A DNA stretch of 64,000 nucleotides, taken from Escherichia coli (GTDB taxonomy: Bacteria; Pseudomonadota; Gammaproteobacteria; Enterobacterales; Enterobacteriaceae). The position numbers were made by a program. Within the stretch, counting starts at the first letter, position 1. Each line of letters starts with the position of its first letter. The stretch lies in the NCBI RefSeq assembly GCF_003334355.1, contig NZ_QOWP01000011.1; one strand, written 5' to 3'. Positions 59,901 to 64,000 of the stretch are shown here, piece after piece.

Positions 59901-62900
59901 CAACGGGTAATACGCCGCGCGGGCAGAGCTGGCAGCCTTTATCATCACAAGTCATATCTGGCTGGCAGGTAAACTCCTGATGATTCTCTTCATCATCAGT
60001 GTCATACACCCGCAATTCGATATCACGTAGCAGGGTTAAATTCTGTAAGCCGTTGAGTACAGGTGACAGGCGTTCACACAGCGGGGCGCGGGAATGCAAA
60101 CGGCGGTTAGCCTGCCATAAAAAAGAGAGGATCTGATTTTTATGCTCCAGCCCGGCGGTTTTCTCCTGAACCCGCTGCTCAAGTACGGCATAACTTTCGG
60201 CCAGTTCTGCAGACATATTGTTCAATGCAGTTCCAAGCATCGCCATTTCGTTGCGCCCGCTGATGTTCGCGCGTTGGGTAAAATCGCGATGACTGACGGC
60301 ACTCGCCATTGCCAGCAGTTGCCGCCACGGTTGTAGCAGTCGCGCCCGCAACCAGATAATAGTGAACACCAGTAAAAGTGCCATAAATACCGCCATTACC
60401 CGATGGACCAGTACCACTGTCTCAATGCGCATTTCCGTGGTGCGGTCAAAACCAGATACCAGCTGATCAAGCCCGGCAACAAACTGGCTGACATCCGCTG
60501 ACACCGTTTCGCGGTTTTGTGCACGCATCAGTGCAGGGATCAGTTCATTACGCCAGTAATCTTGTAAACCCTGTAATTGCGCCAGTTGTCCGTCTCGTTC
60601 TGCTGCTCGAGTCAACTCGGCGCTAAATGCCGTTTGTTCCATCTCTTTAATTAAGGGCTTGTCTTTCTCGCTTAATGGCACTGCTGCCAACAGACGGTAA
60701 CTTTGCATGCGCAGCGATCCCGCTTTGTTGATCGCATGGGCGCTGCCCTGAACGCCTTGCACCAGCCAGCCAGAAACCGCCATCCCTGCCAGTCCAATAG
60801 CAGTAGAAAGCAACACAATAAGCGCAACCTGATTAACCAGGGTGAGCGGAGAGAGACAACGTTTAAGCATGTAAACCTCTTCCTTCAGGCTTTAAATGAG
60901 CAATAACCTTAATGAATGTGACGATACATTCTGGAATGGCAGTATTCTCGGCTATTGGCTGAAGTATACCCATACCCGGAAAGAGTTACTCCTTATTTGC
61001 CGTGTGGTTAGTCGCTTTACATCGGTAAGGGTAGGGATTTTACAGCACCGTGAAAAATCTCATAATTTTTATGAAATCACTGTACTCACTATGGGTAATG
61101 ATAAATATCAATGATAGATAAAGTTATCTTATCGTTTGATTTACATCAAATTGCCTTTAGCTCCAGACACTAAGGTGGCAGACATCGAAACGAGTATCAG
61201 AGGTGTCTATGAGTCACTCATCCGCCCCCGAAAGGGCTACTGGAGCTGTCATTACAGATTGGCGACCGGAAGATCCTGCGTTCTGGCAACAACGCGGTCA
61301 ACGTATTGCCAGCCGCAACCTGTGGATTTCCGTTCCCTGTCTGCTGCTGGCGTTTTGCGTATGGATGTTGTTCAGCGCTGTTGCGGTGAACTTACCGAAA
61401 GTCGGTTTTAATTTTACGACCGATCAGCTATTTATGTTGACTGCGCTGCCTTCGGTTTCTGGCGCGTTATTACGTGTTCCATACTCCTTTATGGTTCCTA
61501 TCTTCGGTGGTCGTCGCTGGACGGCGTTCAGCACCGGTATTCTGATTATTCCTTGCGTCTGGCTGGGTTTTGCCGTGCAGGATACCTCCACGCCTTATAG
61601 CGTCTTCATCATCATCTCTCTGCTATGCGGCTTTGCTGGCGCGAACTTCGCATCCAGTATGGCAAACATCAGCTTCTTCTTTCCGAAACAGAAGCAGGGT
61701 GGCGCGCTGGGTCTGAATGGTGGTCTGGGAAACATGGGCGTCAGCGTCATGCAGTTGGTTGCTCCGCTGGTGGTATCACTGTCGATTTTCGCAGTATTTG
61801 GTAGCCAGGGCGTCAAACAGCCGGATGGGACTGAGCTGTATCTGGCGAATGCGTCCTGGATATGGGTGCCGTTCCTTGCCATCTTCACCATTGCGGCGTG
61901 GTTTGGCATGAACGATCTTGCTACCTCGAAAGCCTCCATCAAGGAGCAGTTGCCGGTACTCAAACGGGGTCATCTGTGGATTATGAGCCTGCTGTATCTG
62001 GCAACCTTCGGCTCCTTCATCGGCTTCTCCGCGGGCTTTGCAATGCTGTCAAAAACGCAGTTCCCGGATGTTCAGATTCTGCAATACGCTTTCTTCGGGC
62101 CGTTTATTGGTGCGCTGGCGCGTTCTGCAGGTGGTGCATTATCTGACCGTCTGGGCGGAACTCGTGTCACGCTGGTGAACTTTATTCTGATGGCGATTTT
62201 CAGCGGCCTGCTGTTCCTGACCTTACCGACTGACGGGCAGGGCGGAAGCTTCATGGCGTTCTTCGCGGTCTTCCTGGCGCTGTTCCTGACAGCTGGGCTG
62301 GGTAGTGGTTCCACTTTCCAGATGATTTCAGTGATCTTCCGTAAACTGACAATGGATCGCGTGAAAGCAGAAGGGGGTTCTGACGAACGTGCGATGCGTG
62401 AAGCGGCAACCGACACGGCGGCGGCGCTGGGTTTCATCTCTGCGATTGGCGCGATTGGTGGCTTCTTTATCCCGAAAGCGTTTGGTAGCTCGCTGGCATT
62501 AACGGGTTCGCCAGTCGGCGCAATGAAGGTATTTTTGATTTTCTATATCGCCTGCGTAGTGATTACCTGGGCGGTATATGGTCGGCATTCTAAAAAATAA
62601 ACCGTTACTCGTCATACTTCGGGTTACATGTGCTGCGGCTGCGTTCATTCACCCCAGTCACTTACTTTAGTAAGCTCCTGGGATTCATTCACTTGCCGCC
62701 TTCCTGTAAACCGAATTATATAGAGTAAAATATTTGATTATCCTTTGCGCGGCATGATGTCGCGCTTTTTTTATGCGTCATTTAGTTACAACATACTAAT
62801 GTTATATGGTTTATTTCGCCGGATTTCATTAAGAGCCATTAATATGTTACCCATGGGGAATACTCCTTAATACCCATCTGCATAAAAATCTTAATAGTTT

Positions 62901-64000
62901 AAATAACTACAGGTATAAAACGTCTTAATTTACAGTCTGTTATGTGGTGGCTGTTAATTATCCTAAAGGGGTATCTTAGGAATTTACTTTATTTTTCATC
63001 CCCATCACTCTTGATCGTTATCAATTCCCACGCTGTTTCAGAGCGTTACCTTGCCCTTAAACATTAGCAATGTCGATTTATCAGAGGGCCGACAGGCTCC
63101 CACAGGAGAAAACCGATGAGTAAATTCCTGGACCGGTTTCGCTACTTCAAACAGAAGGGTGAAACCTTTGCCGATGGGCATGGCCAGCTTCTCAATACCA
63201 ACCGTGACTGGGAGGATGGATATCGCCAGCGTTGGCAGCATGACAAAATCGTCCGCTCTACCCACGGGGTAAACTGCACCGGCTCCTGCAGCTGGAAAAT
63301 CTACGTCAAAAACGGTCTGGTCACCTGGGAAACCCAGCAGACTGACTATCCGCGTACCCGTCCGGATCTGCCAAACCATGAACCTCGCGGCTGCCCGCGC
63401 GGTGCCAGCTACTCCTGGTATCTTTACAGTGCCAACCGCCTGAAATACCCGATGATGCGCAAACGCCTGATGAAAATGTGGCGTGAAGCGAAGGCGCTGC
63501 ATAGCGATCCGGTTGAGGCATGGGCTTCTATCATTGAAGACGCCGATAAAGCGAAAAGCTTTAAGCAGGCGCGTGGACGCGGTGGATTTGTTCGTTCTTC
63601 CTGGCAGGAGGTGAACGAACTGATCGCCGCATCTAACGTTTACACCATCAAAAACTACGGCCCGGACCGTGTCGCTGGCTTCTCGCCAATTCCGGCAATG
63701 TCGATGGTTTCTTACGCATCGGGTGCACGCTATCTCTCGCTGATTGGCGGTACTTGCTTAAGCTTCTACGACTGGTACTGCGACTTGCCTCCTGCGTCTC
63801 CGCAAACCTGGGGCGAGCAAACTGACGTACCGGAATCTGCTGACTGGTACAACTCCAGCTACATCATCGCCTGGGGGTCAAACGTGCCGCAGACGCGTAC
63901 CCCGGATGCTCACTTCTTTACTGAAGTGCGTTACAAAGGGACCAAAACTGTTGCCGTCACACCAGACTACGCTGAAATCGCCAAACTGTGCGATCTGTGG

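What the first reader, a model, noticed from the sequence alone, without database searches (positions are those of the whole stretch)
62851..63024. narG control region is readable: distal NarL heptamers plus a perfect FNR box
Seen in sequence: perfect FNR consensus TTGAT-CGTT-ATCAA at 63011-63024 and two TACYYMT heptamers (TACTCCT, TACCCAT) about 150-160 bp further upstream. Established knowledge: the narG promoter uses FNR near -41.5 and NarL sites around -200, brought together by IHF-induced bending. This confirms the locus and gives an approximate transcription start near 63059 (inference from FNR spacing).
Basis: partly seen in the sequence, partly recalled or inferred. Interest (0 to 1): 0.25.

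Follow-up and report, generated by a model that had tools for sequence, protein, structure and literature searches.

The report
Known E. coli narG promoter region

Summary
A perfect FNR box, TTGATCGTTATCAA, lies at 63011-63024. TACYYMT heptamers lie at 62861-67 and 62871-77. The narK-narG spacer (62601-63115) is 100% identical to E. coli K-12 MG1655. That places FNR at -41.5 and the heptamers at -208, -195, -185 and -89, matching the published NarL footprints at -195 and -89. Across 19 Enterobacterales narG upstream regions, the FNR box, the -195 and -89 heptamers, the T, A and final T of a -10 hexamer (TACCTT, 63047-52) and an IHF-like core (CA-N5-TTA, 62933-42, centre -123) are conserved at fixed spacing. 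Background identity is 38%. The -208 heptamer is specific to E. coli. An FNR box with at least 3 heptamers upstream arose in 0 of 1000 simulated sequences. Verdict: already known, low interest. Side notes: a polymorphic ERIC repeat in the narK 3'UTR/narS, and a highly conserved leader block (63066-75) complementary to the RyhB core, for which narG is already a published candidate target.

The parts
62848..62854 (+). NarL-type heptamer TACCCAT centred at -208. Specific to E. coli and not conserved in other genera.
   Evidence: Pattern match. Position relative to +1. Mean identity 0.31 across 19 Enterobacterales, at or below the 0.38 background. Lost in E. albertii.
62861..62867 (+). NarL heptamer TACTCCT centred at -195, the core of the distal, lower-affinity NarL-P site.
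   Evidence: A perfect TACYYMT lies at -195 to -197 in 14 of the 20 other narG loci that have an FNR box. Mean identity 0.83, with T, A, C, C, C invariant or nearly so. A published NarL-P footprint is centred on the -195 region (PMC4549865).
62871..62877 (+). NarL heptamer TACCCAT centred at -185. It forms a direct repeat with the -195 heptamer at 10-bp spacing.
   Evidence: Only the first four bases (TACC) are conserved between genera; mean identity 0.70. The block CTTAATA bridging the two heptamers is 0.90 identical.
62930..62942 (+). Candidate IHF core TTACAGTCTGTTA, centred at -123, between the two NarL regions.
   Evidence: It has 3 mismatches to WATCAANNNNTTR in this allele. C62933 and A62934 are invariant and T62940, T62941, A62942 are 89-100% identical in the 19-sequence alignment. 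Twelve of the 20 other loci have a 0-2-mismatch IHF consensus at -122 to -124, perfect in Citrobacter FP75, Pectobacterium and Pantoea IMH. The IHF requirement is stated in PMC4549865 and PMC3688515.
62958..62964 (+). Degenerate left half-site TTATCCT centred at -98. With the -89 heptamer it makes a decayed 7-2-7 inverted repeat.
   Evidence: It has 2 mismatches to TACYYMT in E. coli. The same position is a perfect heptamer in RIT691 (TACCCCT-TT-GGGGGTA) and Rahnella (TACCTCT-TT-GGGGGTA), and has 1 mismatch in six others.
62967..62973 (-). NarL heptamer TACCCCT (AGGGGTA on the + strand) centred at -89, the core of the high-affinity proximal NarL-P site.
   Evidence: - strand match. The best heptamer-like match within the -95 to -84 search range falls at exactly -89 in all 20 other loci. 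GGTA is invariant in the 19-sequence alignment; mean identity 0.79. A published high-affinity footprint is centred on the -89 region (PMC4549865).
62977..62983 (+). TAGGAAT, centred near -79. Databases annotate it as a NarL heptamer, citing Li, Kustu and Stewart 1994. It is a weak match.
   Evidence: The sequence is read directly. It is listed as a narG NarL binding site, with its register and strand questioned, in PMC2718512 Table 3. It is not conserved between genera, and the 3 nt just upstream of it vary within E. coli.
63011..63024 (.). FNR box TTGATCGTTATCAA, a perfect consensus centred at -41.5 (class II position).
   Evidence: It is present in 20 of the 21 other narG loci (18 perfect, 2 with one mismatch), 98-141 bp before the narG ATG. 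Mean identity 0.90, with both half-sites essentially invariant. An FNR ChIP-seq peak is assigned to narGHJI at -41.5 (PMC3688515).
63047..63052 (+). The -10 hexamer TACCTT (-12 to -7). There is no recognisable -35, because the FNR half-site occupies that position.
   Evidence: T-12, A-11 and T-7 are 100% conserved while the middle three bases vary, which is the signature of a sigma-70 -10 element. A generic -35/-10 scan finds no + strand promoter here, as expected for an activator-dependent promoter.
63059..63059 (+). Transcription start (+1) in the published numbering, equivalent to MG1655 position 1,279,807.
   Evidence: The primer named -223 starts at 62836 and the primer named +70 ends at 63128. 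With this +1 the heptamers fall on the literature's -195 and -89 and FNR on -41.5.
63066..63075 (+). Leader block AGCAATGTCG (+8 to +17), the best-conserved element of the whole spacer. It is perfectly complementary to RyhB nt 37-46.
   Evidence: GCAATGT is 0.98 identical across 19 genomes. It is a 10-nt perfect complement of RyhB and shares the 10-mer TAGCAATGTC with the sodB start region. narG is a published RyhB candidate. Duplex energy alone is no better than shuffled leaders.
63086..63099 (+). Small leader hairpin GGGCC-GACA-GGCTC just upstream of the Shine-Dalgarno sequence AGGAG (63104-63108). narG ATG is at 63116.
   Evidence: Predicted fold; the whole-leader z-score is only -1.0. The stem sequence is conserved in most Enterobacteriaceae, and Hafnia has a different self-complementary sequence (GGGGC...CCCC) at the equivalent place. 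No function has been established.

Best explanation
The interval is the upstream activating region and core promoter of the E. coli narGHJI (respiratory nitrate reductase A) operon. Under anaerobiosis an FNR dimer binds the perfect box at 63011-24, centred at -41.5. From this class II position it recruits RNA polymerase to a promoter that has a weak -10 (TACCTT) and no -35. When nitrate is present, phosphorylated NarL binds two heptamer regions. One is a high-affinity proximal region around -89 (62967-73, with a decayed partner at -98). The other is a lower-affinity distal cluster of direct repeats at -195 and -185, plus -208 in E. coli (62848-77). An IHF-induced bend centred near -123 (62930-42) lies between the two regions and brings the distal NarL complex back towards the proximal NarL/FNR/polymerase complex, giving strong nitrate induction on top of anaerobic induction. 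Shown here: the sequence elements, their exact coordinates, their identity with K-12, their agreement with the published +1, and their conservation with fixed spacing across Enterobacterales. Taken from the literature: binding of FNR, NarL-P and IHF, and the requirement for both NarL regions. Inferred: the looping geometry.
For: Identity. The spacer is 100% identical to MG1655 and flanked by narK and narG. Numbering. Primers named -223 and +70 both give +1 = 63059, which places FNR at -41.5 and the heptamers at -208, -195, -185 and -89. Published data. NarL-P footprints lie at -89 (high affinity) and -195 (lower affinity); both are required, and FNR and IHF must also bind (PMC4549865). An FNR ChIP-seq peak is assigned to narGHJI at -41.5 (PMC3688515). 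The narG upstream segment confers nitrate/NarL-dependent induction on a heterologous CRP-dependent class II core, whereas single 7-2-7 sites placed at -69.5 to -81.5 did not (PMC9314961). The FNR box is present in 20 of the 21 other narG loci. The -89 heptamer sits at exactly -89 in all 20 loci that have an FNR box, the -195 heptamer at -194 to -197, and their spacing is 105-108 bp, about 10 helical turns. Identity is 0.79-0.90 in the FNR, -195 and -89 motifs against 0.38 background. Within Escherichia, variation piles up between -150 and -105 and spares the -195, -89, FNR and -10 motifs. Controls. None of nine narZ paralogue upstream regions has an FNR box or a heptamer. The composite arose in 0 of 1000 simulated sequences.
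Against: Nothing contradicts it. There are caveats. The primary start-site mapping and footprint papers (DeMoss, Stewart and Gunsalus laboratories, 1988-1996) are not held in the library, so +1 rests on the numbering used by later laboratories. The IHF core in this E. coli allele has 3 mismatches to consensus, and a plain consensus count would favour another 13-mer at -169. The -208 heptamer is not conserved and may contribute little. PMC4549865 also reports NarL-P protection around -150, which fits NarL spreading along the DNA as well as simple looping.
Confidence: 0.93

Rival explanations
1. The elements are the same, but activation does not depend on an IHF-mediated loop. Instead NarL-P nucleates at the -89 and -195 sites and oligomerises cooperatively along the DNA. 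IHF merely helps, and the promoter-proximal NarL makes the productive contact with polymerase or FNR.
For: PMC4549865 reports NarL-P protection 'including regions around -150'. [quoted passage not shown] The E. coli IHF core is a poor consensus match.
Against: The interval -175 to -135 and the stretch -116 to -100 are the least conserved parts of the region, even within E. coli. That is not expected if specific NarL contacts were needed there. The CA-N5-TTA IHF core and the 105-108 bp spacing between the -195 and -89 heptamers are conserved across genera, which points to a fixed geometry around a bend. Published work states that IHF must bind.
Confidence: 0.05
2. The heptamers and the FNR box are chance motif matches in an AT-rich spacer and carry no regulatory meaning.
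For: TACYYMT is degenerate and frequent: 59 matches in the window against 33 expected. The -208 heptamer is not conserved.
Against: The composite arose in 0 of 1000 simulations. Only 2 perfect FNR boxes occur in 64 kb, and both are at promoters known to depend on FNR. The motifs are conserved at fixed positions across an order of bacteria against 38% background identity. Published footprints and ChIP-seq confirm binding.
Confidence: 0.01
3. The distal heptamer cluster (62848-77) belongs to the upstream narK/narS unit, for example by modulating termination or narS 3' end formation, rather than to narG.
For: The cluster lies only about 75-105 bp downstream of the narK/narS terminator (62747-62773).
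Against: The cluster keeps a constant distance to the narG FNR box (-194 to -197) in genera where the sequence upstream of it is unalignable. NarL acts by binding DNA near promoters. The narG223 fragment, which starts at 62836 downstream of the terminator, is described as the full-length narG promoter.
Confidence: 0.01

Closest known systems
Escherichia coli K-12 narGHJI promoter (narGp: FNR at -41.5, NarL at -89 and -195, IHF between them)
   Same: It is the same object. The 515-bp narK-narG spacer is base-for-base identical to MG1655, and all published positions map onto the window once +1 is set at 63059.
   Different: Nothing differs in the control region. The surrounding 6.7 kb differs from MG1655 at 38 positions, so the window comes from another E. 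coli strain.
E. coli narK promoter, 1.9 kb upstream in the same window
   Same: It has a perfect FNR box (61136-49, TTGATTTACATCAA) about 60 bp before narK, preceded by TACYYMT heptamers at 60967 (+), 60987 (+) and 61091 (-). It is co-induced by FNR and NarL (PMC7038943).
   Different: The heptamers are arranged differently: 45, 149 and 169 bp upstream of the box, with one inverted heptamer close to it. I did not analyse its start site or any IHF site.
E. coli nirB promoter (FNR at -41.5, NarL/NarP 7-2-7 at -69.5, IHF and Fis)
   Same: It is a class II FNR promoter whose nitrate response involves both NarL and IHF (PMC10853779).
   Different: At nirB, NarL binds a single 7-2-7 site and acts by displacing IHF, which is anti-repression. 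At narG, IHF is a co-activator, E. coli has no intact 7-2-7 site (PMC4549865), and two separated heptamer regions are needed.
IHF-looped enhancer-dependent promoters (sigma-54 type such as nifH and glnHp2; TodT at PtodX)
   Same: A distal activator site about 100-200 bp upstream is brought to the polymerase by an IHF bend at fixed phasing. PMC4549865 draws the TodT parallel.
   Different: narG is a sigma-70 promoter that also needs a class II activator (FNR). NarL is not an enhancer-binding ATPase. The sigma-54 comparison rests on my own knowledge and not on a tool result.

Membership tests
Class II FNR-activated promoter | Inverted repeat matching TTGAT-N4-ATCAA | tested here: met
   There is a perfect match at 63011-24. 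It is one of only 2 in 64 kb against 0.15 expected. It is conserved in 20 of the 21 other narG loci.
Class II FNR-activated promoter | Site centred at about -41.5 relative to the transcription start, overlapping the -35 position | tested here: met
   The box centre is 63017.5. The published numbering gives +1 = 63059 from two independent primers, so the centre is -41.5. The same value is listed for narGHJI in PMC3688515. I could not read the primary start-site mapping.
Class II FNR-activated promoter | Recognisable -10 hexamer about 22 bp downstream of the box, with a poor or absent -35 | tested here: met
   TACCTT lies at -12 to -7, with T, A and the final T invariant across 19 genomes. The spacer from box to hexamer is 22 bp. 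The generic sigma-70 scan finds no full promoter on the + strand.
Class II FNR-activated promoter | FNR occupancy and FNR-dependent transcription in vivo | not testable with these tools
   This rests on the literature only: a ChIP-seq peak and direct activation are listed in PMC3688515.
NarL-activated control region | TACYYMT heptamers at the footprinted positions (-195 and -89 regions) | tested here: met
   Perfect heptamers are centred at -208, -195 and -185 (+) and at -89 (-). The published footprints lie at -195 and -89.
NarL-activated control region | Heptamers under purifying selection at fixed positions | tested here: met
   The -195 heptamer is 0.83 identical and the -89 heptamer 0.79, against 0.38 background. 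Positions are constant to within 2 bp. The -208 heptamer fails this test (0.31).
NarL-activated control region | High-affinity 7-2-7 inverted repeat, the preferred NarL dimer site | tested here: not met
   The E. coli pair at -98/-89 is TTATCCT-AA-AGGGGTA, and the left half has 2 mismatches. PMC4549865 states that narG lacks 7-2-7 sites. A 7-2-7 site is not obligatory for NarL targets. Some relatives do have a perfect 7-2-7 here.
IHF-dependent promoter architecture | Match to the IHF consensus WATCAANNNNTTR between the distal and proximal activator sites | tested here: inconclusive
   The positionally conserved 13-mer at 62930-42 has 3 mismatches in this allele. Twelve of the 20 other loci have 0-2 mismatches at -122 to -124, and the CA and TTA cores are invariant or nearly so.
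IHF-dependent promoter architecture | IHF binding and loss of induction in IHF mutants | not testable with these tools
   This rests on literature statements only. The primary papers by Schroder 1993 and Rabin 1992 are not held in the library.

The most novel reading that the evidence does not exclude
The most conserved element of the region is not a transcription-factor site but the leader block AGCAATGTCG at +8 to +17 (63066-75). It is a perfect 10-nt complement of the RyhB core and shares the 10-mer TAGCAATGTC with the sodB RyhB site. It could be a genuine, order-wide RyhB pairing site that lets iron starvation veto synthesis of the iron-rich nitrate reductase. It would act about 40 nt upstream of the ribosome-binding site, so not by simple occlusion of that site. 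narG is so far only a predicted, Ribo-seq and transcriptome candidate, and no mapped site or compensatory-mutation test turned up in the papers I searched.
Probability: 0.4. Interest if true: 0.3.

Novelty: already known. Interest (0 to 1): 0.08.

Why it matters
The finding adds nothing new about narG regulation. This promoter has been dissected since the late 1980s, and the window's sequence is identical to the K-12 reference. Its value is as a calibration point. A tool-free reader located the FNR box to the base, named the right regulators and inferred the published +1 exactly, but it overlooked the proximal -89 NarL site. The comparative analysis adds small refinements. The -195/-89/FNR geometry is fixed across Enterobacterales. 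The -208 heptamer is a recent addition in E. coli. The E. coli -98/-89 pair looks like a decayed 7-2-7 site. The IHF core sits at -123.

Tried and rejected
1. Upstream ORF. An ATG at 63070 opens a 17-codon frame that overlaps the narG start. In other genera the frame is 1-4 codons long, runs 79 codons into narG, or has no stop within 100 codons. A conserved leader peptide is therefore rejected.

2. Structured leader RNA. The fold of +1 to +72 has a z-score of only -1.0. Rfam in E-value mode finds no family in 62300-63300 apart from a sub-threshold V_AS5 hit on the ERIC repeat and a chance RyhB-model hit on the narS terminator.

3. RyhB pairing by energy. RNAduplex of the leader against the RyhB core gives -15.7 kcal/mol. 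This is reached by 330 of 2000 shuffled leaders and by 667 of 1599 genomic segments. A full-length duplex calculation was equally uninformative. Twenty-one 10-mers complementary to RyhB occur in the window. Hybridisation energy therefore does not support the site; only conservation, identity with sodB and the published screens do.

4. Generic sigma-70 scan. It finds no + strand promoter in 62500-63200, which is uninformative for an activator-dependent promoter.

5. IHF by consensus count in E. coli alone. The best match is at -169 on the minus strand, not at the conserved -123 position. Single-sequence scanning is unreliable here.

6. Primary literature. Walker and DeMoss 1992 (PMC206404) is not held, so +1 was recovered indirectly from primer names.

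7. Tandem Repeats Finder on the ldr region returned nothing, because the 535-bp period exceeds its limit.

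Full report
**1. What is in the sequence**

The window reads ...TTACCCATGGGGAATACTCCTTAATACCCATCT... at 62847-62879 and ...CTCTTGATCGTTATCAATTCC... at 63008-63028. A pattern search confirms TTGATCGTTATCAA at 63011-63024. It is one of only two perfect TTGATNNNNATCAA matches in the 64 kb, where 0.15 are expected. The other match, at 61136-61149, lies about 60 bp before narK.

TACYYMT occurs at four places in the narG control region:
- 62848-54 (+, TACCCAT)
- 62861-67 (+, TACTCCT)
- 62871-77 (+, TACCCAT)
- 62967-73 (-, TACCCCT)

Single heptamers are weak evidence, because the window holds 59 matches against 33 expected. 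The composite is far beyond chance. A perfect FNR box with at least 3 heptamers 30-220 bp upstream occurs at both narK and narG, and it occurred in 0 of 1000 first-order Markov simulations.

**2. Identity of the locus**

The 516 bases from 62601 to 63116 match 5417 of 5426 complete E. coli genomes. In MG1655 the flanking genes are narL, narX, narK and narG, with the sRNA narS annotated across the narK 3' end. The narK-narG spacer (62601-63115) is an exact match to MG1655. The surrounding 6.7 kb differs at 38 positions, so this is another E. coli strain. The conversion is MG1655 coordinate = window + 1,216,748. The narK stop codon ends at 62600 and the narG ATG is at 63116.

**3. The transcription start**

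I could not read the primary mapping papers. However, the Busby laboratory amplified 'narG223, positions -223 to +70' with two primers:
- narGup223, whose genomic part starts with CCATTAATATG at 62836
- narGDown, whose genomic part ends at 63128 (PMC9314961 supplement)

Both primers give +1 = 63059 (MG1655 1,279,807). With that +1 the positions are as follows:
- FNR box centre: -41.5
- Heptamer centres: -208, -195, -185 and -89

These are the numbers the literature uses. [quoted passage not shown] The FNR ChIP-seq study lists narGHJI as directly activated, with the site at -41.5 (PMC3688515).

**4. Comparative test**

A scan of one genome per species with the NarG N-terminus returned narG loci from 21 Enterobacterales genomes, plus narZ paralogues and more distant gammaproteobacterial and a few alphaproteobacterial loci.

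The FNR box is present in 20 of the 21 narG loci, 18 of them perfect, and lies 98-141 bp before the ATG. I anchored each locus on its FNR box. The results:
- The best -89 heptamer match falls at exactly -89 in all 20 loci. In several genera it departs from the strict consensus by 1-2 bases, but GGTA is invariant.
- A perfect TACYYMT lies at -195 to -197 in 14 of 20 loci.
- The spacing from the -195 heptamer to the -89 heptamer is 105-108 bp, about ten helical turns.

In a 19-sequence alignment the mean identity to the window was:

| Element | Mean identity |
|---|---|
| FNR box | 0.90 |
| -195 heptamer | 0.83 |
| -89 heptamer | 0.79 |
| -185 heptamer (only TACC conserved) | 0.70 |
| -208 heptamer | 0.31 |
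| All other columns (background) | 0.38 |

Three further points come from the same alignment:
- A -10 hexamer, TACCTT (63047-52, -12 to -7), shows the classic pattern: T, A and the final T are invariant and the middle is variable.
- Between the two NarL regions, C and A (62933-34) are invariant and TTA (62940-42) is 89-100% identical. This is the CA-N5-TTA core of the IHF consensus WATCAANNNNTTR.
- Twelve of the 20 other loci have a 0-2-mismatch IHF site at -122 to -124. It is perfect in Citrobacter FP75, Pectobacterium and Pantoea IMH, whereas this E. coli allele has 3 mismatches.

Within Escherichia, substitutions pile up between -150 and -105 and upstream of -215. They spare the -195, -89, FNR and -10 motifs, apart from single 3'-end changes in the -195 and -185 heptamers of E. 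albertii and one divergent E. coli strain. As a negative control, none of nine narZ paralogue upstream regions contains an FNR box or a heptamer.

**5. Mechanism**

The best-supported model is the established one. FNR at -41.5 acts as a class II activator on a promoter that lacks a -35. NarL-P binds at -89 and at the -195/-185 cluster. IHF bends the DNA at about -123, so that the distal NarL complex is brought close to the proximal complex.

Functional support in the accessible literature comes from a transplant experiment. The narG upstream segment confers strong nitrate- and NarL-dependent induction on a CRP-dependent class II core promoter. Single consensus 7-2-7 sites placed at -69.5 to -81.5 did not (PMC9314961).

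The looping step itself is inferred. The conserved spacing and the conserved IHF core support it. Reported NarL-P protection around -150 leaves some room for NarL spreading along the DNA.

Two small refinements come from the comparison. The E. coli pair TTATCCT-AA-AGGGGTA at -98/-89 appears to be a decayed version of the true 7-2-7 site seen in some relatives, for example TACCCCT-TT-GGGGGTA. The -208 heptamer is confined to E. coli.

**6. Things outside the finding**

(a) Leader block. The best-conserved block of the entire spacer lies in the mRNA leader: AGCAATGTCG at +8 to +17 (63066-75), with GCAATGT at 0.98 identity. It is not a conserved uORF and not a significantly stable structure. It is a perfect 10-nt complement of RyhB nt 37-46 and shares the 10-mer TAGCAATGTC with the sodB start region, where the full stretch reads GTAGCAATGTCA.

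narG has already been reported as a RyhB candidate in two ways. It was translationally repressed in Ribo-seq, having been predicted earlier by TargetRNA2 (PMC4666370). It also appeared among new RyhB candidates (operons down-regulated under anaerobic conditions) in a transcriptome study (PMC4676285). A 2021 review of nitrate-respiration sRNAs does not list it as a RyhB target (PMC8139620). Hybridisation energy does not discriminate the site from shuffled sequence, so it remains a candidate.

(b) ERIC repeat. An ERIC/IRU repeat sits at about 62606-62728 in the narK 3'UTR, inside the annotated narS. The ERIC2 primer matches it with 2 mismatches, and there is a sub-threshold Rfam V_AS5 hit. Only 2454 of 5417 E. 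coli genomes carry it here. Wang et al. note an insertion in E. coli NarS without naming it.

(c) narK promoter. It shows the same FNR-plus-heptamer grammar.

(d) ldr/rdl repeats. Heptamer hits spaced 535 bp apart at 52.3-53.8 kb mark the ldrABC/rdlABC long direct repeats.

**7. Verdict**

The object is already known in full, and the interest is low.

Noticed in passing
window 63066-63075 (narG leader, +8 to +17): AGCAATGTCG is the most conserved block of the narK-narG spacer across Enterobacterales. It is a perfect complement of RyhB nt 37-46 and shares the 10-mer TAGCAATGTC with the sodB RyhB site. narG is a published but apparently unvalidated RyhB candidate. Duplex energy alone is not better than shuffled sequence.
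   Followed up: partly
window 62606-62728 (narK 3'UTR, inside annotated narS at 62589-62772): An ERIC/IRU repeat is inserted between the narK stop codon and the narS seed/terminator. It is present at this site in only about 45% of complete E. coli genomes, and similar copies occur on plasmids. It may affect processing of the NarS sRNA in the strains that carry it.
   Followed up: partly
window 62958-62973: The E. coli -98/-89 pair (TTATCCT-AA-AGGGGTA) aligns with a perfect NarL 7-2-7 inverted repeat in some other Enterobacterales, such as RIT691 and Rahnella. The 'non-7-2-7' high-affinity site of E. coli narG therefore looks like a decayed 7-2-7.
   Followed up: partly
window 60967-61149 (narK promoter): The second perfect FNR box in the window (61136-49, TTGATTTACATCAA) lies about 60 bp before narK. 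It is preceded by TACYYMT heptamers at 60967 (+), 60987 (+) and 61091 (-). The regulatory grammar is the same as at narG.
   Followed up: no
window 62900-62955 (-160 to -105 of narG): The DNA flanking the IHF core is hypervariable even among E. coli strains; for example GTGGTGGC becomes CTATAAAT or ATTTAAAT. The adjacent NarL and FNR sites are invariant. Some other E. coli alleles have an IHF core closer to consensus than the K-12 allele does.
   Followed up: partly
window about 52350-53800: Heptamer pattern hits recur with an exact 535-bp period. By comparison with MG1655, this is the triplicated ldrA/B/C-rdlA/B/C long direct repeat, a type I toxin-antitoxin system. The period exceeds the limit of Tandem Repeats Finder.
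   Followed up: partly
window 63086-63099: A small hairpin (GGGCC-GACA-GGCTC) sits just 5' of the narG Shine-Dalgarno sequence. It is conserved in sequence in Enterobacteriaceae, and Hafnia has a different self-complementary sequence at the same place. Its function is unknown.
   Followed up: no
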